Source of the DNA: Escherichia coli
GTDB lineage: Bacteria > Pseudomonadota > Gammaproteobacteria > Enterobacterales > Enterobacteriaceae
Reading direction: 5' to 3' (one strand)
DNA length: 64,000 bases
NCBI GenBank assembly: GCA_002099625.1
Contig: GCA_002099625.1_4857.1
Positions 2,306-63,229 of this stretch are shown here, piece by piece; position 1 is the first letter of the stretch, and each line of letters opens with the position of its first letter. A model generated the notes under the pieces. That model had not been told where the DNA came from and ran no database searches. It saw only the letters and a list, made by a program, of their open reading frames with translations. Both the position numbers and the translations under genes were made by a program.

Positions 2306-2752
2306 TTAGTGTACTTCTTTTTCTAAACGCAGGCGATGCGTCGCTAAGGCGATTGCACGGTTTTCGAATTCAAGACTGAATGGGCTGATTTGTGCCATGT
2401 ATTTCTTTACGATGTCGTCAGAGACAACTTGACGACGATAATCACGAATCATTTCAGCAAAGCTGCTAGTAGGAAGTTCATCGTATTCGATTTCCATACC
2501 ACGTCTATTGATGTAGTACGAAGCAACCATGTCGTTAAACATTACATCGCCGGCTTCACCTAGAGGGAACTCGTCGCGAGTAGGTTCTGTGGTCTGGAAC
2601 GTGGCTTCTTTGGCGTTGGCGATAATCTCTTCGAAGTCCTCAGTAGTGAATTCGCTAGGGTCTTGTTTGTTGGCCGCCATCACGATTAGGAAAGAAATCA
2701 TAATCGGGTTTTTGCTAGCGTATTTAGTAAGTTCGTTATTCAGAATGTACAT
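2306..2752 (-). CDS. hypothetical protein, first gene after class A promoter
   Basis: 148-aa ORF; SD AAGGAG; class A promoter, hairpin and conserved leader lie about 50 nt upstream. Confidence 0.6.
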   Translation of the reverse strand: MYILNNELTKYASKNPIMISFLIVMAANKQDPSEFTTEDFEEIIANAKEATFQTTEPTRDEFPLGEAGDVMFNDMVASYYINRRGMEIEYDELPTSSFAEMIRDYRRQVVSDDIVKKYMAQISPFSLEFENRAIALATHRLRLEKEVH

Positions 2753-2805
2753 GTTAAAACTCCTTAAGATAATGGTCGATTAGATAAGAGTTAATTGTTA
2801 ACTCT

Positions 2806-2829
2806 CACCTAAGTAATATATATCTGAAA
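2806..2829 (-). promoter_or_regulatory. class A phage promoter-like motif
   Basis: Minus-strand TTTCAGATATATATTACTTAGGTG; near-identical copies at 24757, 54641 and 63146, each about 50 nt upstream of a minus gene start. Confidence 0.6.
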
Positions 2830-5021: not shown

Positions 5022-5342
5022 TTAAAATCCATTGCGACCTCCCTGTGCGATGTATAACGCACATTTCGCATTGAGTGCTTCGATATTAGCGATAAGTATC
5101 ATCACGCCGCCGAGTGTTCGTGGTACGCGAACTGCTTCGTACTCGCGACTTTGTGTACGGACACAATATTCATCGCCCAGGAACGCGATTTCGTAATACT
5201 CAGCACGTAACGGCACAAATGACTGTAGCAACATATCTGCGGTTTGATAGTCGTCAGTCAGTTTTCCGCCCTCGAGTAAATATTTCTGAATCTCGTGAAT
5301 GGTCAATCCCTGTAATGAAATAGACACCAGCTTCTCCTTCAT
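5022..5342 (-). CDS. hypothetical protein, start uncertain
   Basis: ORF track 106 aa. Leader motif TAATCGACCAT spans the ATG at 5342; AAGGAG plus 6 nt then GTG at 5327 is an alternative start. Confidence 0.45.
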   Translation of the reverse strand: MKEKLVSISLQGLTIHEIQKYLLEGGKLTDDYQTADMLLQSFVPLRAEYYEIAFLGDEYCVRTQSREYEAVRVPRTLGGVMILIANIEALNAKCALYIAQGGRNGF

Positions 5343-5679
5343 GGTCGATTAATAACAGTTCAGGTGGCACGTCATAGTCGATGGGTGCGGACTCCTCCAT
5401 CACGCTATACAATCGCTGATAGAACTCTCTGGAGGTTTCCAGGTGCCCTCTTGACACGTGTCTGACATGCGGTGTATTAGGATGATAAAACTCGCCGTAG
5501 GTTATCGCTAACTCGACAAACCATAGACATAGTTCTCTTGGCCCGTACCGGTTATAAAACTTTATCACCCCAACATCAAACATCTTGTTGTAATGCGGTA
5601 AATCACGATAACGAAGTTTTAGTGTACCTACACCGATGCGTTGAAGCTCGATAGAGATAGCTACGTCTATGGTTACCAT
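5254..5679 (-). CDS. hypothetical protein
   Basis: 141-aa ORF; 3' end overlaps next gene by 74-89 nt in another frame. Confidence 0.5.
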   Translation of the reverse strand: MVTIDVAISIELQRIGVGTLKLRYRDLPHYNKMFDVGVIKFYNRYGPRELCLWFVELAITYGEFYHPNTPHVRHVSRGHLETSREFYQRLYSVMEESAPIDYDVPPELLLIDHEGEAGVYFITGIDHSRDSEIFTRGRKTD

Positions 5680-7623: not shown

Positions 7624-7682
7624 TTTAATTGCTCCTTAATACATGACATAAGTTCTGATTGAAACGTAAATTTCAGAGGTTC

Positions 7683-7706
7683 ACTGAGATAACATCTATC
7701 TGAAAT
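7683..7706 (-). promoter_or_regulatory. class B phage promoter-like motif
   Basis: Minus-strand TTTCAGATAGATGTTATCTCAGTG; related copies at 18184, 26453, 46767 and 47567. Confidence 0.55.
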
Positions 7707-18151: not shown

Positions 18152-18183
18152 CTACTTTTTCCTTTCTTTACAGTTAGGTTCAG

Positions 18184-18205
18184 TAAAATAACATCTATCT
18201 GAAAA
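18184..18205 (-). promoter_or_regulatory. class B phage promoter-like motif
   Basis: Minus-strand TTTTCAGATAGATGTTATTTTA. Confidence 0.5.
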
Positions 18206-22167: not shown

Positions 22168-23169
22168 TTAACATCCTCTCATGCCAGATTGAAACATATC
22201 ACTGATAGTCAGCCTGGTTGTAGTCTCCACCGGAATGCTAGGTTCTTCTTTCAGCACTCGATCGGCGCGGTTCCCATTCACCCGTTTCCAGCTAATAAGT
22301 TCAGGATCGCGTTTCAACGTTAGTGTACGCAGTACCTGCTTGCAACGTAAGATGTTACCGTACAGGTGATTTGCTGGATTATTATCAGCAGCTGTTTCAA
22401 TATAGACTTGGTCGGAATGACGTTGTGCGAAATCGAATAGCGCGCCCATTAGCCGGCGGCCAATGCCACGTTTACGGTGCGTGGGTGCAACGGTTAAACC
22501 AGAAAGTTCAACGACGCCTGGTGTAACCAAGCGCATCTGGGCAATACCGACGATATCATGGCCGTCTCGCCAAATTGCAGTCTCCACATTAGCGTGCTGA
22601 ATTCTTGCTATTACTGTTTCTGCTAACGGACCAATGTGTGTATAGTAGCCACGCATATCGTATTCTAGCTCTTCGCAAATTGCACCGCTAATCAAATTCA
22701 GGATAACGTCTTTATCTTCCTTGGTAAGTTCTGCGTATGCATCACCAGAAATAATCTTGATTTCTGATGCGGTGATTACTTTGTCAAACAGTTTAGAATG
22801 ACATGCCCAAACGATATCTGAAAGAACAAACCCTTTTTCGACCAGTTTTTGTTCAACATCGTCAGTAGGTGCTGGGCACGACATATATTCGAATCCGGTA
22901 TGGTCGAGCACAAGGGCCAAACCAACTTTATCGAATGCCCCAGGTACAAACTCCTCAAAATAGTGACAGGTTAGCGTAGGGTCACCGTGTCGATAGGTGG
23001 CCACTAAATAACCCTCCCAGGTTTCTTTATTCTTCACCACGTAAACAGAATAAGTCTCGTCCTTTAGAAACTCTTTTAGGCGGCGTGCTCGTACAGTATC
23101 GCTACCGACGTTATTTCGGAACTCGGCAGTGCGGATGCTGGTGCGAAACAATTTAGCCACAGTTTTCAT
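22168..23169 (-). CDS. GNAT-family acetyltransferase domain protein
   Basis: C-terminal motif A HRKRGIGRRLMGALFDF; start set at ATG 23169 (MKTVAKLF) so the ORF does not run through the terminator at 23221..23255. Confidence 0.5.
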   Translation of the reverse strand: MKTVAKLFRTSIRTAEFRNNVGSDTVRARRLKEFLKDETYSVYVVKNKETWEGYLVATYRHGDPTLTCHYFEEFVPGAFDKVGLALVLDHTGFEYMSCPAPTDDVEQKLVEKGFVLSDIVWACHSKLFDKVITASEIKIISGDAYAELTKEDKDVILNLISGAICEELEYDMRGYYTHIGPLAETVIARIQHANVETAIWRDGHDIVGIAQMRLVTPGVVELSGLTVAPTHRKRGIGRRLMGALFDFAQRHSDQVYIETAADNNPANHLYGNILRCKQVLRTLTLKRDPELISWKRVNGNRADRVLKEEPSIPVETTTRLTISDMFQSGMRGC

Positions 23170-24339: not shown

Positions 24340-24705
24340 CTACATCACTGCAGAAGGTTTACGTGCCATGACTTTAAGTCCCGTATCTCGTACCCGGATA
24401 GGACAATTATTCATGTAATCAATGCAGGATTCAATTTTGAAGCTGTGTCGACATTTACCGTTGATGGAACGGTAGACGATTTCGTAATTCAGGCGCAGTG
24501 TATCGGCAACCCGCATTAACGTTTCAATAGTCACGGCCTTCTCACGTTCATTTTTAATCGCAGATATTTGTGACGGCGAGCAACCTACTAATAACGCAAC
24601 GTCTTTCTGCGTAACGTCCTTCGCAGTAACACGTGTAATAATGTAAGAAAGACGAACCAAAAACGCTTTCTTTGCCAACACAACTGTTTGATGTTTAAAA
24701 CGCAT
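24340..24705 (-). CDS. HTH (XRE/Cro-like) transcriptional regulator
   Basis: Helix-turn-helix signature TQKDVALLVGCSPSQISAIKN; first gene after class A promoter. Confidence 0.55.
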   Translation of the reverse strand: MRFKHQTVVLAKKAFLVRLSYIITRVTAKDVTQKDVALLVGCSPSQISAIKNEREKAVTIETLMRVADTLRLNYEIVYRSINGKCRHSFKIESCIDYMNNCPIRVRDTGLKVMARKPSAVM

Positions 24706-24756
24706 TAGAATACTCCTTTAGATTAATAGTCGATTAGAGAGTTTAGTAGTAACTCT

Positions 24757-24780
24757 CACCTAGGTAATATATATCTGAAA
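24757..24780 (-). promoter_or_regulatory. class A phage promoter-like motif
   Basis: Minus-strand TTTCAGATATATATTACCTAGGTG, followed by hairpin GAGAGTT/AACTCTC and leader TAATCGAC. Confidence 0.6.
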
Positions 24781-24821
24781 TTTAGTGGACTGGAAGCAAA
24801 AAAGCATAAGACTGTTCTGAT

Positions 24822-24866
24822 CTGTAAAAAAGGCAATACCCTCTTACCCGAAGGTAAGAGGGGGTA
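24822..24866 (-). terminator. intrinsic terminator
   Basis: Stem accctcttacc/ggtaagagggggt with cgaagg loop, T-run on minus strand. Confidence 0.75.
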
Positions 24867-24869
24867 CAA

Positions 24870-25493
24870 CTAACCTGCCAAAATTCGTTCAACGATACGG
24901 GCGGCCTGTAACGCCATATCGTCGTCTGCTGCGATTCGCATCAGTGGGAATTTATCACCACCGTCTGTAGTGATGTGGAACGCAAAACGGTAATGGTCGC
25001 GTAATGCGTCCCAATCGGTCTGTGAGCGCAGATACTTCGCTGTCAGTACCTCATCATCCCAGTTCTTACCTTGTGCTTCTACGCGCTTCTTAAAGCGTTC
25101 TGTGGCGGTTTCGTAAGATACATCGGTTGCCACGTAAAGCTTTGGTGCGTTAATGTGGTCTAATACCCGCGAACGGAAAACTTCCCCTTTACCATCTACG
25201 CCCTGGTAGACAATGGTCGATTGACAAAAACGGTCAAAAATAACGACATCGTGCTCTGGTACAACGAAGTCCATTGTATATTGGAAATCCAGACACATCG
25301 CTTTGGCAATACGTTCACTAGAGGCGTGCTGGATAACCAGAGAGCGTGCACTAATACCGGCTTCAGTGGTATTCGTCGGGTGATTGACGATGATGGCATT
25401 AACGCCAGCGGAGCGCAACATCGCTTGAATCATTTTAGCGAGTGTTGATTTGCCAGAAAAATCTGGACCATCCAGCGCCACTGAGTTTAACAT
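24870..25493 (-). CDS. tmk: thymidylate (dTMP) kinase-like P-loop kinase
   Basis: P-loop GPDFSGKST and DRF...YQG motif; start at ATG 25493. Confidence 0.6.
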   Translation of the reverse strand: MLNSVALDGPDFSGKSTLAKMIQAMLRSAGVNAIIVNHPTNTTEAGISARSLVIQHASSERIAKAMCLDFQYTMDFVVPEHDVVIFDRFCQSTIVYQGVDGKGEVFRSRVLDHINAPKLYVATDVSYETATERFKKRVEAQGKNWDDEVLTAKYLRSQTDWDALRDHYRFAFHITTDGGDKFPLMRIAADDDMALQAARIVERILAG

Positions 25494-26452: not shown

Positions 26453-26482
26453 CGTCTCCCTAAGATAATATCTATCCGAAAA
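26453..26482 (-). promoter_or_regulatory. class B phage promoter-like motif
   Basis: Minus-strand TTTTCGGATAGATATTATCTTAGGGAGACGTG. Confidence 0.5.
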
Positions 26483-46732: not shown

Positions 46733-46766
46733 TGAGCATCCCAGTAATAATACCAAAAGAATTATT

Positions 46767-46790
46767 CACGTAGATAATATCTATCTCAGA
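46767..46790 (-). promoter_or_regulatory. class B phage promoter-like motif
   Basis: Minus-strand TCTGAGATAGATATTATCTACGTG. Confidence 0.5.
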
Positions 46791-47566: not shown

Positions 47567-47595
47567 TCTCTCCCTAAGATAATATCTATCTATAA
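47567..47595 (-). promoter_or_regulatory. class B phage promoter-like motif
   Basis: Minus-strand TTTATAGATAGATATTATCTTAGGGAGAG. Confidence 0.55.
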
Positions 47596-54263: not shown

Positions 54264-54445
54264 TAGTAAATCTCCTGCTGCATTGGAAACACATTACCTG
54301 TCGGTGAGACGAGTAAGACTTGCGCGGTAACGTGAACAATTTCTTCTTCGTCCTGATGACGAACACCGTTAGTGAGATTATCCCACTCACGTTTAACACG
54401 AGGGTGAGATAAGAACTCGGCAAACTGCGTATCAGAAAAGTCCAT
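54263..54445 (-). CDS. small hypothetical protein
   Basis: Start ATG 54445 overlaps stop of upstream micro-ORF (TAATG coupling). Confidence 0.45.
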   Translation of the reverse strand: MDFSDTQFAEFLSHPRVKREWDNLTNGVRHQDEEEIVHVTAQVLLVSPTGNVFPMQQEIY

Positions 54446-54588
54446 TAGCCGCGACCTGTGCACATGGCAACAGAGTTACCGTTATCGATGCATTTGTTGT
54501 AATCTTGAGTTACAGTGATAGACAGTACCGCGAAAGCAACAACAGCAACGATTGCGAAGATGGCACGTTTATGGTTACGAGTTAACAT
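54445..54588 (-). CDS. small membrane protein (47 aa)
   Basis: MLTRNHKRAIFAIVAVVAFAVLSITV...; single TM; first ORF after class A promoter; not in ORF track (under 60 aa). Confidence 0.45.
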   Translation of the reverse strand: MLTRNHKRAIFAIVAVVAFAVLSITVTQDYNKCIDNGNSVAMCTGRG

Positions 54589-54640
54589 GGTAATACTCCT
54601 TTAGCTTAATAGTCGATTGAGTTGATAGATTGTCTTCTAT

Positions 54641-54664
54641 CACCTAGGTAATATATATCTGAAA
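54641..54664 (-). promoter_or_regulatory. class A phage promoter-like motif
   Basis: Minus-strand TTTCAGATATATATTACCTAGGTG followed by hairpin GATAG/CTATC and leader. Confidence 0.6.
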
Positions 54665-61734: not shown

Positions 61735-62280
61735 TCATTGAACCATACGCTGCGCGTCGTAAGACGGTGCGAGGTTCACAACACGACCATGTAGAGTTTG
61801 CTCTGCTTCGTCTAACAGGTCATCGCGTACGAGCGTCTGGCGAATGTAAAGCGTTGCCCGTATCCCCTCAGCGCTGTAAGGCGCGGTGACCATTTTGGTC
61901 TGGTAACCTTCAATCGTCACCGGAACACGCTCGCCATTACGACGAACAAAATGCTCCAGCTTACCGTAATCGTGACTGCAGACTTTAGACATGTCAGACA
62001 ATCCCGCATCGATTAAGTATTTCCAAAGACTGACGATGCCTTCTGAGCAATGTTTGTTAAGTTCACCTTCGACGACAAACTCGTACCCACCGTACGTTAG
62101 AATGTGCGTGCCTGCTGAACGACGGTCACATTCTAAAATGAACACGCCCAGACCAATCATAACCGGACGTGGGATTGTCATGACACTGGTACTAAATTGC
62201 AGCGTAGTAACCTCATCCCAAAGGGGCGATGATTTGTCGTTGCTTACACTAATAACATCTTTGAGATTGACACGTTTCAT
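61735..62280 (-). CDS. hypothetical protein
   Basis: 181-aa ORF; conserved leader TAATCGACCATTA and SD AAGGAG upstream. Confidence 0.55.
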   Translation of the reverse strand: MKRVNLKDVISVSNDKSSPLWDEVTTLQFSTSVMTIPRPVMIGLGVFILECDRRSAGTHILTYGGYEFVVEGELNKHCSEGIVSLWKYLIDAGLSDMSKVCSHDYGKLEHFVRRNGERVPVTIEGYQTKMVTAPYSAEGIRATLYIRQTLVRDDLLDEAEQTLHGRVVNLAPSYDAQRMVQ

Positions 62281-62317
62281 TATAAATACTCCTTACGATT
62301 AATGGTCGATTACATAC

Positions 62318-62346
62318 GGTTTCAGGCTAACGTAATATTTACGCTG
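62318..62346 (-). promoter_or_regulatory. class A-like promoter variant
   Basis: Minus-strand CAGCGTAAATATTACGTTAGCCTGAAACC; overlaps the 3' end of 62339..63100. Confidence 0.4.
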
Positions 62347-63100
62347 CTGGTTCTTCAGCGGTTTTCACTTCAACTGGTTTCATCAACGAGTTCGCACAGT
62401 CGAAGATAGCATCCAGGAAACCACGGAACGGCTTCATGGCTTCACGCTGGGCGTTCTGACGTTCTTCTTCAATTGCTTCTTCTTGCGCCTGAATTTCTTC
62501 AGCAGTCAGCTCTGGGTGTTCCGTCATGCTTTCTGCCAGGGTCATCACTTTCGGCTGCGCATTCAGAATCGGAATACGGCGGATGACCTTGGTGATATTC
62601 CCGAGCTTCATGCCACCCAGCATGGTATCGAACAGCGTACCGAAATCTTGCAGTGGGTCTTCGCTGATTTCCAGTACCGCCGGAGTCGCAACCAGACCAA
62701 AGGCAATGACCAATTCAACGGCAGTGTCAGTGACGTGCGCAGCGAACGGGGTGTCTTCCATCTGCAGGTAATTGTTGCCATTATAGGTCACCGGAATGAA
62801 TTTGATTTCTTCCCCTTTCTTCAGTCGCAGTGTATCGACTGCGGCTTTGTACTGAACTTCGTACAGTTCCGGTTTAACACCGTCAACGTTATCCAGTGTA
62901 AAGAGCAGGTCACCAACCGCCATACGGCGCGGCAGTTTGCGTTTGTTGATTTCGCGCAGCCAGACTTGTAAGCCGGTGAATTGAATTGGGGACAGTCTAA
63001 TTTTAAAGCCGTTGGTTGCTTGCAGGATAGCACCGTCGTCTTCGCTACGTTCGATAGAGCCATTAGCCAGAGTAAGCAGATTGATAGTTTTCATTTTCAT
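62339..63100 (-). CDS. hypothetical protein
   Basis: 253-aa ORF, acidic C-terminus; first gene after class A promoter. Confidence 0.55.
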   Translation of the reverse strand: MKMKTINLLTLANGSIERSEDDGAILQATNGFKIRLSPIQFTGLQVWLREINKRKLPRRMAVGDLLFTLDNVDGVKPELYEVQYKAAVDTLRLKKGEEIKFIPVTYNGNNYLQMEDTPFAAHVTDTAVELVIAFGLVATPAVLEISEDPLQDFGTLFDTMLGGMKLGNITKVIRRIPILNAQPKVMTLAESMTEHPELTAEEIQAQEEAIEEERQNAQREAMKPFRGFLDAIFDCANSLMKPVEVKTAEEPAA

Positions 63101-63145
63101 ATTCCTTAAGTAATGGTCAGTTAGTAAAGCAAATCATTGTTTGCT

Positions 63146-63169
63146 CACCTAGGTAATATATATCTGAAA
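63146..63169 (-). promoter_or_regulatory. class A phage promoter-like motif
   Basis: Minus-strand TTTCAGATATATATTACCTAGGTG followed by hairpin GAGCAAA/TTTGCT. Confidence 0.6.
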
Positions 63170-63185
63170 ATTATTGTAATCGGAG

Positions 63186-63229
63186 ACAAAAAAAGAAGAG
63201 GTAAATCCCCCACCGAAGTGGGGGATTCG
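63186..63229 (-). terminator. intrinsic terminator
   Basis: Stem aatccccca/tgggggatt with ccgaag loop; T-run on minus strand. Confidence 0.75.

What the first reader, a model, noticed from the sequence alone, without database searches (positions are those of the whole stretch)
24706..24756. Covarying 5' hairpin and conserved leader TAATCGACCATTA after class A promoters
Immediately 3' of each class A motif the transcript would begin with a hairpin whose stem sequence differs between copies but keeps pairing: GAGAGTTAA/TTAACTCT at 2791..2808, GAGAGTT/AACTCTC near 24735..24756, GATAG/CTATC near 54620..54640 and GAGCAAA/TTTGCT near 63128..63146. It is followed by the conserved element TAATCGAC(C/T)ATTA and then SD AAGGAG. 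Compensatory change in the stem with a conserved single-stranded element argues for a functional RNA structure, such as a stability determinant or a binding site for a translational regulator. A related TAATCGACCAT sits across the start of the gene at 5342.
Basis: seen in the sequence. Interest (0 to 1): 0.7.

Follow-up and report, generated by a model that had tools for sequence, protein, structure and literature searches.

The report
Early-gene 5' hairpin of jumbo phage
In this giant Salmonella phage, each of four early-gene promoters is followed by a short RNA hairpin that starts at the predicted first transcribed base and keeps its pairing while its sequence changes; it most likely shields the phage's first messages from host RNA-degrading enzymes, which is a familiar trick found in a new place.

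Summary
The window is an SPN3US-like jumbo phage. The "class A motif" (TTTCAGATATATATTACYTAGGT, four copies on the minus strand) matches the phiKZ/AR9-type virion-RNA-polymerase early promoter (TATATTAY-6N-G+1). That places the start site on the first G of each hairpin.

I collected 57-81 distinct promoter copies, depending on the length compared, from related Salmonella and Erwinia phages and metagenomes.
- About 84% have base +1 paired.
- Stems of 6 or more pairs start exactly at +1 in 38 of 56 copies.
- More than 12 unrelated stem sequences occur.
- Covariation beats every shuffle and slide control (91% of cells paired against 74%; 0 of 500 shuffles).
- G·U outnumbers A·C 33 to 3, which points to a sense-strand RNA structure.

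Each hairpin alone is not energetically unusual (z -0.5 to -1.1).

The leader TAATCGACYATTA is also real, but it is a separate module. It keeps its distance to the Shine-Dalgarno site, not to the start site. It recurs at an internal gene that has no promoter, and it is lineage-specific.

Best reading: a 5'-terminal protective stem-loop followed by an open, strong ribosome-binding leader, the same layout as T7 phi10. The function is inferred, not shown. AR9 and most phiKZ early promoters lack the hairpin. I rate it a new member of a known kind, of moderate interest.

The parts
24839..24862 (-). Intrinsic terminator of the upstream unit (CCCTCTTACC-TTCG-GGTAAGAGGG plus T-run), about 60 nt before the promoter
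   Evidence: sequence
24758..24780 (-). Class A promoter TTTCAGATATATATTACCTAGGT. It matches the virion-RNA-polymerase early promoter type (TATATTAC-6N-G+1).
   Evidence: AR9/phiKZ consensus and start-site geometry
24737..24757 (-). 5'-terminal hairpin GAGAGUU-ACUACUA-AACUCUC (7 bp, -7.8 kcal/mol). The predicted +1 is G at 24757.
   Evidence: covariation
24724..24736 (-). Conserved single-stranded leader TAATCGACTATTA
24703..24718 (-). Shine-Dalgarno AAGGAG (24713-24718) and ATG (24703-24705) of a 121-aa HTH DNA-binding protein
2807..2829 (-). Class A promoter copy (TTTCAGATATATATTACTTAGGT). The terminator CCCTACTCC-CGAA-GGAGTAGGG lies upstream at 2865-2886.
2786..2806 (-). 5' hairpin GAGAGUUAA-CAA-UUAACUCUU (9 bp, -7.5). 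The DNA inverted repeat extends 6 bp further, into -6..-1 (2780-2812).
2750..2782 (-). Leader TAATCGACCATTA (2770-2782), AAGGAG (2760-2765) and ATG (2750-2752) of a 148-aa protein of unknown function
54642..54664 (-). Class A promoter copy
54624..54641 (-). 5' hairpin GAUAGA-AGACAA-UCUAUC (6 bp, -5.9)
54586..54619 (-). Leader CAATCGACTATTA (54607-54619), AAGGAG (54596-54601) and ATG (54586-54588) of a 47-aa hydrophobic peptide
63147..63169 (-). Class A promoter copy. The terminator lies upstream at 63203-63228.
63127..63146 (-). 5' hairpin GAGCAAA-CAAUGA-UUUGCUU (7 bp, -5.0). The orthologous site in SPN3US carries an unrelated hairpin, GAGAUUGC-AUUG-GUAAUCUU.
63092..63123 (-). Leader TAACTGACCATTA (63111-63123), AAGGA (63103-63107) and the likely start ATG at 63092-63094 (an alternative ATG lies at 63098-63100) of a 251/253-aa protein
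62278..62312 (-). Leader-only copy: TAATCGACCATTA (62300-62312), AAGGAG (62289-62294) and ATG (62278-62280) in front of the second gene of the 63144 operon. It has no promoter and no hairpin.
5325..5351 (-). Leader-like TAATCGACCAT followed by AAGGAG (5334-5339) and an in-frame GTG (5325-5327)

Best explanation
The class A motif is the early promoter read by the phage's injected virion RNA polymerase. Transcription starts at the G that lies 6 nt after TATATTAC. The RNA therefore begins with a 6-9 bp hairpin that leaves 0 (sometimes 2) unpaired 5' nucleotides.

This 5'-terminal stem-loop most likely denies the host enzymes RppH and RNase E the single-stranded 5' end they need. That would prolong the life of the first phage messages.

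The rest of the roughly 50-nt leader stays unpaired. It carries the conserved A/U-rich element (TAATCGACYATTA here, TTGACTATC in Erwinia-phage relatives) just upstream of a consensus AAGGAG. Together these form a strong, open translation-initiation region. The element may also be a recognition site for a factor acting on early mRNAs.

Shown: the motif, its position, covariation of the stem, strand asymmetry, and the separability of hairpin and leader. Inferred: the exact start site (by homology with phiKZ and AR9), the protective function, and the role of the leader.
For: Identity: the window is 96-97% identical to SPN3US-group jumbo phages.

Promoter and start site:
- AR9 early promoters are AAATATATATTAT-(6N)-G+1, and phiKZ and phiR1-37 start 6 nt after the consensus (PMC5312081).
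- The annotated AR9 promoters and the phiKZ sequences show the same geometry.
- Here the sequence is ATATATATTAC-CTAGGT-GAG.
- No sigma-70-like promoter is found at these sites.

Position of the hairpin:
- +1 is paired in 35 of 44 distinct copies, against 28% of 716 genomic controls. Mean MFE is -5.6 against -1.5 kcal/mol for shuffles.
- In the larger set, +1 is paired in 63 of 75 distinct copies, and the remaining hairpins start at +2 or +3.
- Stems of 6 or more pairs start exactly at +1 in 38 of 56 copies, and almost none start at +5 to +14.

Covariation: with 0 of 500 and 0 of 2000 controls reaching the observed values. Example: GAGATTGC/GTAATCTT against GAACTTGC/GTAAGTTT has two double changes. 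At one orthologous site the whole hairpin is replaced while the flanks stay the same.

RNA level: 33 G·U against 3 A·C in the stems.

Mechanistic precedent: RppH and RNase E need at least 2 unpaired 5' nucleotides, and a 5'-terminal stem-loop blocks RppH (PMC8833179; PMC3997798).

Same layout in T7 phi10: a +1..+21 hairpin, an open leader, AAGGAG and ATG.

Leader:
- Six copies with SD and start codon lie on the gene strand, and none on the other strand.
- Its distance to the SD is fixed while its distance to +1 varies.
- It is predicted to be unpaired.

Circumstantial: phiKZ's RNase E inhibitor Dip has no detectable homologue outside Pseudomonas Phikzvirus phages.
Against: - No transcript 5' end has been mapped for any SPN3US-like phage, as far as the searched library shows.
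- Each hairpin is weak and A/U-rich, and is not significant on its own.
- About a third of the copies extend the inverted repeat 4-6 bp upstream of +1 into the promoter. A purely RNA-level role starting at +1 does not explain this.
- Many copies are orthologues, and some variation is whole-hairpin exchange rather than stepwise compensation, so the number of independent events is far below the number of cells counted.
- Only about 10% of E. coli mRNAs depend on RppH (PMC3997798).
- The leader motif is absent from 40 of 81 distinct copies and shows no complementarity to 16S rRNA, so its enhancer role is a guess.
Confidence: 0.5

Rival explanations
1. The hairpin serves transcription itself. A nascent-RNA (or non-template-strand) hairpin forming right after initiation would help the virion RNA polymerase clear the promoter, strip the RNA from the A/T-rich template, or pause there.
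For: - The hairpin travels with the promoter even where no ribosome-binding site follows: L003 and L029 have no ORF, and in L008 a terminator follows.
- Its start is locked to +1.
- In 19 of 62 copies the inverted repeat reaches into the promoter spacer at -6..-1.
- +1 to +5 (GAGAG or GAGAT) is itself semi-conserved.
Against: - Related virion-polymerase promoters work without it. None of 8 annotated AR9 early promoters has it, and only about 2 of 7 candidate promoters matched in the first 50 kb of phiKZ do.
- There is no U-run or G+C-rich stem, and the terminator scan does not flag these hairpins.
Confidence: 0.15
2. Hairpin and/or leader are recognition sites for a trans-acting factor that handles early mRNAs. 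Candidates are a translational repressor or nuclease that shuts off early genes (as T4 RegA and RegB do), or a factor for ribosome loading or release from the early infection vesicle.
For: - The leader is conserved in sequence while the neighbouring hairpin drifts freely.
- It recurs at an internal early gene.
- It lies 0-14 nt from the SD, where T4 RegA/RegB-type regulators act (own knowledge).
- One class A operon starts with an HTH protein.
Against: - Hairpin loops and stems share no sequence, so any reader of the hairpin would have to be shape-only.
- The leader motif differs between lineages and is missing in half of the copies.
- No candidate RNA-binding protein was identified.
Confidence: 0.15
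3. There is no selected function. The palindromes would be relics of inverted duplication of the promoter-proximal sequence, spread and swapped among terminator-promoter cassettes by recombination. The leader similarity would reflect common descent of those cassettes.
For: - The repeat extends into non-transcribed -6..-1 in a third of copies, and never beyond -6.
- Whole-hairpin allele exchange occurs between orthologous sites, and the same hairpin appears at non-orthologous promoters.
- Individual folds are not significant.
Against: - At least 12 unrelated stems all start at +1.
- Double compensatory changes occur within hairpin types.
- G·U against A·C is strongly asymmetric.
- The feature is kept across Salmonella, Erwinia and uncultured relatives whose loops and spacers have diverged.
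Confidence: 0.08
4. The element acts as DNA. The leader would be an operator or roadblock for a phage repressor, such as the HTH protein encoded behind promoter 24755. Alternatively, the inverted repeat would form a cruciform that modulates the promoter.
For: - TAAT-N5-ATTA here and TYGA-CTA-TCRA in Erwinia phages are short inverted repeats.
- An HTH gene is the first gene of one such operon.
Against: - The palindromic register is not conserved between lineages.
- The leader's distance to +1 varies from 22 to 47 nt, but it is fixed to the SD.
- The stems rely on G·U pairs, which would be A·C mismatches on the other strand.
Confidence: 0.07

Closest known systems
T7 phi10 (gene 10) leader, as used in pET vectors
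   Same: A phage-polymerase promoter is followed by a hairpin from +1 to +21, an unpaired A/U-rich leader, AAGGAG and ATG at about +55-64. The order and dimensions match the elements here.
   Different: - T7 uses a single-subunit polymerase and a G+C-rich stem (-16 kcal/mol for the UTR, z -2.5).
- The T7 leader's enhancer is reported to pair with 16S rRNA (own knowledge), whereas this leader does not.
- The stems here are weaker, and they vary between promoters of one genome.
5'-terminal stabilising stem-loops of E. coli mRNAs (ompA, papA; Emory, Bouvet and Belasco 1992)
   Same: The hairpin sits at the extreme 5' end with 0-2 unpaired nucleotides, and structure matters rather than sequence. 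The known mechanism is exclusion of RppH and of 5'-end-dependent RNase E.
   Different: Those are single host genes with measured half-life effects. This is a family of more than 50 promoter-linked hairpins in phage early transcripts, with no experimental data.
phiKZ / AR9 / phiR1-37 virion-RNA-polymerase early promoters
   Same: An A/T-rich element TATATTA(C/T), a 6-nt spacer and a conserved G start, placed upstream of small early genes and often after terminators.
   Different: - Here the spacer (YTAGGT) and +2 are also invariant.
- A +1 hairpin follows in about 85% of copies.
- AR9 has none in 8 promoters, and phiKZ has about 2 in 7 candidate promoters matched.
T4-type PeSL cassettes (promoter-early stem-loop; Arbiol et al. 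2010, own knowledge)
   Same: Small repeated regulatory cassettes combine a terminator hairpin with a strong early promoter between small genes. There are signs of recombinational exchange between copies.
   Different: In PeSLs the stem-loop is the terminator and the promoter is read by host sigma-70 polymerase. Here an additional hairpin lies inside the transcript at +1, and the promoter is phage-polymerase specific.
Phage N4 virion-polymerase hairpin promoters
   Same: A virion-packaged polymerase, early genes, and a short hairpin associated with the promoter.
   Different: The N4 hairpin lies upstream of +1, forms in template DNA and has conserved bases (own knowledge; PMC4496689 was listed but not read). 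Here the hairpin is transcribed, its loop is not conserved, and its G·U pairs are on the sense strand.

Membership tests
phiKZ-type virion-RNAP early promoter | Highly conserved A/T-rich element of about 10 nt (TATATTAC/T) centred near -10 | tested here: met
   ATATATATTAC is invariant in all 4 window copies and in 57 or more related copies. The same core is seen in phiKZ and AR9 sequences. The consensus comes from PMC7598289 and PMC5312081.
phiKZ-type virion-RNAP early promoter | Conserved G start site 6 nt downstream of the element | tested here: inconclusive
   An invariant G lies exactly 6 nt after TATATTAC. The actual RNA 5' end has not been mapped for this phage group, and no such data were found.
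phiKZ-type virion-RNAP early promoter | The phage encodes and packages a multisubunit virion RNA polymerase, and the promoter precedes early operons | not tested
   The window is 96% identical to SPN3US, whose virion RNAP subunits are reported (PMC7598289). No RNAP gene was identified inside this window. The downstream genes are small and of unknown function, an HTH protein and a 47-aa peptide, not structural genes.
5'-terminal stabilising stem-loop (ompA / papA / T7 phi10 type) | The hairpin begins within 0-1 (at most 2) nt of the RNA 5' end | tested here: met
   Given the predicted +1, there are 0 unpaired nt in 63 of 75 distinct copies, 1 in one and 2 in eight. Stem starts peak sharply at +1. 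This depends on the inferred start site.
5'-terminal stabilising stem-loop (ompA / papA / T7 phi10 type) | Structure rather than sequence is maintained | tested here: met
   45 distinct hairpin sequences in the full set, falling into 12 or more unrelated stem types. Covariation exceeds all controls.
5'-terminal stabilising stem-loop (ompA / papA / T7 phi10 type) | Lengthens mRNA half-life by blocking RppH and 5'-end-dependent RNase E | not testable with these tools
   This needs half-life measurements. The mechanism is taken from PMC8833179 and PMC3997798.
Intrinsic terminator / attenuator | G+C-rich stem followed by a U-run | tested here: not met
   The scan flags the upstream terminators but not the +1 hairpins. 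The stems are A/U-rich and the tails are not U-runs.
N4-type hairpin promoter | A DNA hairpin upstream of +1 with conserved stem and loop bases | tested here: not met
   The hairpin lies at +1..+21, downstream of the conserved element. The loops are unrelated. G·U outnumbers A·C 33 to 3 on the sense strand.
16S-complementary translational enhancer (T7 epsilon type) | A leader segment complementary to 16S rRNA beyond the SD | tested here: not met
   The longest complement to E. coli 16S is 5-6 nt. Duplex energies are no better than those of shuffled leaders (fraction of shuffles at least as good: 0.33-1.0).
nut / rrn-type antitermination site (boxB hairpin plus boxA) | A conserved single-stranded box at fixed spacing from a structure-only hairpin | tested here: not met
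   The spacing from hairpin to leader varies from 0 to about 25 nt, while the leader is locked to the SD. The leader also occurs without any hairpin. No boxA-like sequence was seen, and Rfam gave no hit.
Any curated RNA family (Rfam 15) | Match to a covariance model | tested here: not met
   No match at gathering thresholds in the window, L003 or L008. No match at E up to 1 in 24680-24870.

The most novel reading that the evidence does not exclude
The +1 hairpin, which in a third of copies is built from the promoter's own -6..-1 spacer, and the leader together would form a dedicated "early-message tag" of SPN3US-like nucleus-forming phages. This structure would be read by the virion polymerase or by a co-injected or early phage factor. 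Its job would be to release, export from the early infection vesicle, or preferentially translate the very first transcripts. It would not be a passive nuclease shield.
Probability: 0.12. Interest if true: 0.75.

Novelty: new member of a known kind. Interest (0 to 1): 0.45.

Why it matters
Jumbo nucleus-forming phages start infection with a polymerase they bring along. How their first messages survive and get translated in a hostile cytoplasm is poorly known, and no virion polymerase promoter of the SPN3US group has been mapped.

This analysis gives a precise, testable model of an early transcription unit: terminator, promoter, +1 hairpin, open leader, strong SD. It predicts the start site to the base.

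It also shows that the hairpin is a clade-specific addition, absent from AR9 and most phiKZ early promoters, in phages that lack phiKZ's RNase E inhibitor. That suggests two alternative solutions to the same problem.

In practice, the cassette is a ready-made part for engineering these phages, and it helps correct start-codon calls.

Tried and rejected
- Leader pairing with 16S rRNA (T7 epsilon-like): the longest complement is 5-6 nt and is no better than shuffles.
- Known RNA families and tRNAs: no Rfam match and no tRNA in the promoter-only loci.
- Host sigma-70 promoter or intrinsic terminator at the sites: none were called. Only the upstream terminators were found.
- Thermodynamic significance of single UTRs: weak (z -0.5 to -1.1), so I did not use it as evidence.
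- The hairpin as a general property of virion-polymerase early transcripts: rejected. AR9 shows 0 of 8 and phiKZ about 2 of 7 candidate promoters matched.
- A mini-hairpin or conserved palindrome inside the leader (TAAT..ATTA; TYGA-CTA-TCRA): the register is not conserved between lineages and there is no consistent covariation (inspection).
- The first collection scan, with 16 specified bases, was swamped by an unrelated conserved coding sequence (…GATATATATTACGTAGGTGAAGTTAAA…) from other phages. I repeated it with a 20-nt pattern.
- Literature searches for a prior description of the hairpin or for SPN3US start-site data found none.
- A plain MAFFT alignment of the four full regions aligns the promoter and leader but not the hairpin arms. 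I used a covariance-model alignment and a register-free arm-swap test instead.

Full report
WHAT THE WINDOW IS

The region around the finding is 96-97% identical to Salmonella jumbo phages of the SPN3US group (Seoulvirus). Weaker matches go to Erwinia jumbo phages. Nearly all genes lie on the minus strand, so everything below is read on that strand.

CHECKING THE OBSERVATION

The motif TTTCAGATATATATTACYTAGGTGAG occurs four times, at 2804-2829, 24755-24780, 54639-54664 and 63144-63169. Shuffles give 0.00. Its core ATATATTAC occurs nowhere else in the 64 kb.

In each copy the sequence that follows is an inverted repeat starting at the G of "GTGAG":
- 2786-2806 (9 bp)
- 24737-24757 (7 bp)
- 54624-54641 (6 bp)
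- 63127-63146 (7 bp)

Next comes TAATCGACYATTA, with 0, 0, 1 and 2 mismatches in the four copies, then AAGGAG or AAGGA and an ATG. Three of the four copies are preceded by a canonical intrinsic terminator; the fourth, at 54639, is preceded by a long nested inverted repeat with no T-run.

Two additions:
- An exact leader copy at 62300-62312 precedes the second gene of the 63144 operon, with no promoter or hairpin.
- The copy at 5339-5351 is followed by AAGGAG and an in-frame GTG. It looks like a ribosome-binding region for a GTG start rather than something lying across an ATG.

WHAT THE CLASS A MOTIF IS

Jumbo phages of the phiKZ group carry a virion RNA polymerase. It reads A/T-rich, highly conserved early promoters centred near -10 (PMC7598289).

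For AR9 the consensus is AAATATATATTAT-(6N)-G+1. In phiKZ and phiR1-37 the start also lies 6 nt after the element (PMC5312081). I checked this geometry on real sequence:
- Eight annotated AR9 early promoters are a 13-nt element, 6 nt, then G-A or G-T.
- phiKZ intergenic regions show TATATTAC-6N-G.

The motif here reads ATATATATTAC-CTAGGT-G-A-G. By homology, the start site is the first G of every hairpin (24757, 2806, 54641, 63146). This is an inference. I found no start-site mapping for SPN3US-like phages. No sigma-70-type promoter is called at these sites.

The downstream genes are small: an HTH protein, proteins of unknown function, and a 47-aa hydrophobic peptide. The structural genes in the window lack the motif.

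IS THE HAIRPIN MORE THAN CHANCE?

Folded alone, each 5' UTR is unremarkable (z -0.5 to -1.1). So I collected more copies.

Exact-pattern scans of viral and metagenome collections gave 108 promoter instances. These collapse to 57 distinct sequences over the first 28 nt, 75 over 60 nt and 81 over 75 nt. They come from SPN3US, phiEaH2, other Erwinia jumbo phages and uncultured contigs of 220-246 kb.

Position:
- In the first set of 44 distinct copies, the first 28 nt fold to -5.6 kcal/mol on average, against -1.5 for shuffles. No shuffled set mean fell below -2.25.
- Base +1 is paired in 35 of 44, against 28% of 716 genomic positions that start with GAG.
- In the larger set, +1 is paired in 63 of 75, and most of the remaining hairpins start at +2 or +3.
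- A scan that makes no use of a folding program shows stems of 6 or more consecutive pairs starting exactly at +1 in 38 of 56 copies. At most one such stem starts at any single position from +5 to +14.

Covariation:
- There are 45 distinct hairpin sequences in the full set, falling into at least a dozen unrelated stem types. Examples are GAGAGTT…, GAGATTGC…, GAACTTGC…, GAGCAAA…, GAGCATTGA…, GAGCGTTA…, GAGGAT… and GATAGA….
- Swapping 3' arms among copies drops pairing at stem positions 3-7 from 88% to 63 +/- 3%, with a maximum of 73% in 2000 trials.
- A covariance model built from ten equal-length copies recovered 52 instances.
- On that alignment 91.0% of cells pair, against 74.4 +/- 1.7% (0 of 500). 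There are 47 cells with changes on both sides against 14.1 (0 of 500). The covariation score is 0.360 against 0.132 (0 of 500). Slid registers give 38-61%.
- That alignment is fitted to the structure, and many rows are related. The figures therefore overstate the number of independent events, but the two tests agree.

Clear compensatory cases exist. GAGATTGC…GTAATCTT against GAACTTGC…GTAAGTTT changes G-C to A-U and A-U to C-G.

At the orthologous site of copy 63144, this phage has GAGCAAACAATGATTTGCTT where SPN3US has GAGATTGCATTGGTAATCTT. The promoter, leader and gene on either side are nearly identical. The SPN3US allele is the hairpin found at non-orthologous promoters of Erwinia phages. 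So some of the variation is exchange of whole hairpins, and a hairpin is kept every time.

RNA OR DNA?

The stems contain 33 G·U pairs on the sense strand and only 3 A·C, which would be G·U on the other strand. Leaving out the closing pair, the count is 13 to 3. A symmetric DNA palindrome or cruciform would not show this bias. A sense-strand transcript would.

THE LEADER IS A SEPARATE MODULE

GACYAT followed by an SD and a start codon occurs six times on the gene strand and never on the other strand.
- Its distance to the SD is tight: 12-15 nt from GAC to AGGA in the SPN3US/phiEaH2 type, 7-8 nt in the Erwinia type. Its distance to +1 ranges from 27 to 47 nt.
- It occurs without a hairpin at 62300-62312.
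- Hairpins occur without it. In phiEaH2 L003 no ORF follows. In SPN3US L008 a terminator follows the hairpin, and the leader-like CCAATCGAC comes only after that.
- Only 41 of 81 distinct copies carry it: 19 as TAATCGACYATTA and 22 as (A)ATYGACTATC abutting the SD. The more distant contigs use other leaders such as ACTTAACNAAACCATTTTAGGAG.
- It is predicted to be unpaired.
- It has no complementarity to 16S rRNA beyond chance and no Rfam match.

MECHANISM

The best-supported reading is a 5'-terminal protective stem-loop. E. coli RppH and RNase E both need at least two unpaired 5' nucleotides and prefer three or more. A 5'-terminal stem-loop prevents RppH from removing pyrophosphate (PMC8833179). 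This explains the long-known stabilising effect of 5' structures such as those of ompA and papA (PMC3997798).

The hairpins here leave 0 (sometimes 2) unpaired nucleotides. That is what such a shield requires. It also explains why the helix start is locked to +1 while stem sequence, loop and length are free.

The T7 phi10 leader has the same plan. From the annotated start at 22904 there is a +1..+21 hairpin, an open A/U-rich leader, AAGGAG and ATG.

The hairpin is not needed by virion polymerases in general. None of 8 AR9 early promoters has it, and only about 2 of 7 candidate promoters matched in the first 50 kb of phiKZ do. This weakens the idea that it serves initiation or escape and favours a lineage- or host-specific post-transcriptional role.

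Circumstantially, phiKZ's RNase E inhibitor Dip (PHIKZ037; identification is my own knowledge, and one record annotates it as "Dip protein") has tblastn matches only in Pseudomonas Phikzvirus phages and none in the Salmonella or Erwinia group.

For the leader I can only propose that it is part of an extended, unstructured, strong translation-initiation region. It may also be a site for a factor acting on early mRNAs.

WHAT REMAINS UNEXPLAINED

In 36 of 62 copies the helix stops exactly at +1. In 19 it continues 4-6 bp upstream into the invariant promoter spacer (T/C)TAGGT, pairing with A(C/T)(C/T)TAA just 3' of the hairpin. It never goes beyond -6.

Window copy 2804 is such a case, a 15-bp inverted repeat at 2780-2812. 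Chance would give about 2%.

If transcription starts at +1, these extra pairs are not in the primary transcript. They could be a relic of how the hairpins arise (inverted duplication of -6..+9). They could matter in read-through RNA from upstream, or they could point to a role at the promoter. This observation keeps the transcription-linked and no-function rivals alive.

COMPARISON AND NOVELTY

The promoter type is known, and motifs of this kind were predicted bioinformatically for all such phages. A 5'-terminal stabilising hairpin followed by an open leader is a known kind of element.

What I did not find described in the searchable literature is the following combination:
- a systematic, covarying +1 hairpin on virion-polymerase early transcripts of the SPN3US/Erwinia jumbo-phage clade;
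- its absence from AR9 and most phiKZ early promoters;
- its separability from a lineage-specific RBS-proximal leader.

I file it as a new member of a known kind, with moderate interest. The function is inferred and needs start-site mapping and stem or compensatory mutants.

Noticed in passing
window 7677-7705, 18176-18204, 26453-26481, 46762-46790, 47567-47595 (minus strand): A second promoter-like family, TTTCAGATAGATRTTATCTnAGkGA, is related to class A and contains an AGATA-N5-TATCT inverted repeat. It has no +1 hairpin. Copies 7677 and 26453 share AAATTTACGTTTCA downstream. It could be a second promoter class (weaker early, or middle).
   Followed up: partly
window 2780-2812 (minus strand); also loci L125, L128, L140, L048: In about a third of the copies, the inverted repeat extends 4-6 bp upstream of the predicted start into the promoter spacer (T/C)TAGGT, and never beyond -6. 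The distribution is bimodal (extension of 0, or of 4-6). This is unexplained if transcription starts at +1.
   Followed up: partly
window 62278-62345 (minus strand): An exact leader, AAGGAG and ATG stand in front of an internal gene. [quoted passage not shown]
   Followed up: no
window 5325-5351 (minus strand): The sequence TAATCGACCATGAAGGAGAAGCTGGTG has the leader and SD upstream of an in-frame GTG at 5325-5327. The ORF listed as 5022..5342 probably starts 5 codons later, at the GTG.
   Followed up: no
window 63092-63107 (minus strand): The SD AAGGA (63103-63107) is 2 nt from ATG 63098-63100 but 8 nt from the in-frame ATG 63092-63094. The second ATG is the more likely start.
   Followed up: no
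window 63127-63146 vs L004 5119-5138: At an orthologous site the whole hairpin is replaced, with near-identical flanks. The SPN3US allele equals the hairpin at non-orthologous promoters of Erwinia phages (L048, L138). This suggests recombinational exchange of hairpin modules.
   Followed up: partly
L008 8433-8510 (SPN3US); L003 213-320 and L029 (phiEaH2-like): Some class A promoters are not followed by a gene. In SPN3US, a promoter and hairpin are followed by an intrinsic terminator within about 50 nt (a small RNA or an attenuator). In phiEaH2, the strongest hairpin (-9.8 kcal/mol) has no SD or ATG within 90 nt. Neither has an Rfam or tRNA match.
   Followed up: partly
window 54445-54588 (minus strand): Promoter 54639 drives a 47-aa ORF with a hydrophobic stretch (MLTRNHKRAIFAIVAVVAFAVLSITV…). 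It is probably a small membrane peptide made very early in infection.
   Followed up: no
L142 (phiKZ 1-50000), upstream of PHIKZ006, 010, 010.1, 014, 015, 054: Genes of phiKZ's early region share an extended context, (A)ATC(N)GTAAAAAGGAA, directly before the start codon. This lineage-specific conserved RBS-proximal leader is analogous to the one here.
   Followed up: no
loci L010-L121 (IMG/VR): The 16-base promoter core also matches a conserved coding sequence (…FEDIYYVGEVK…) in about 100 unrelated viral contigs. This is a coincidence and has nothing to do with the promoter.
   Followed up: yes
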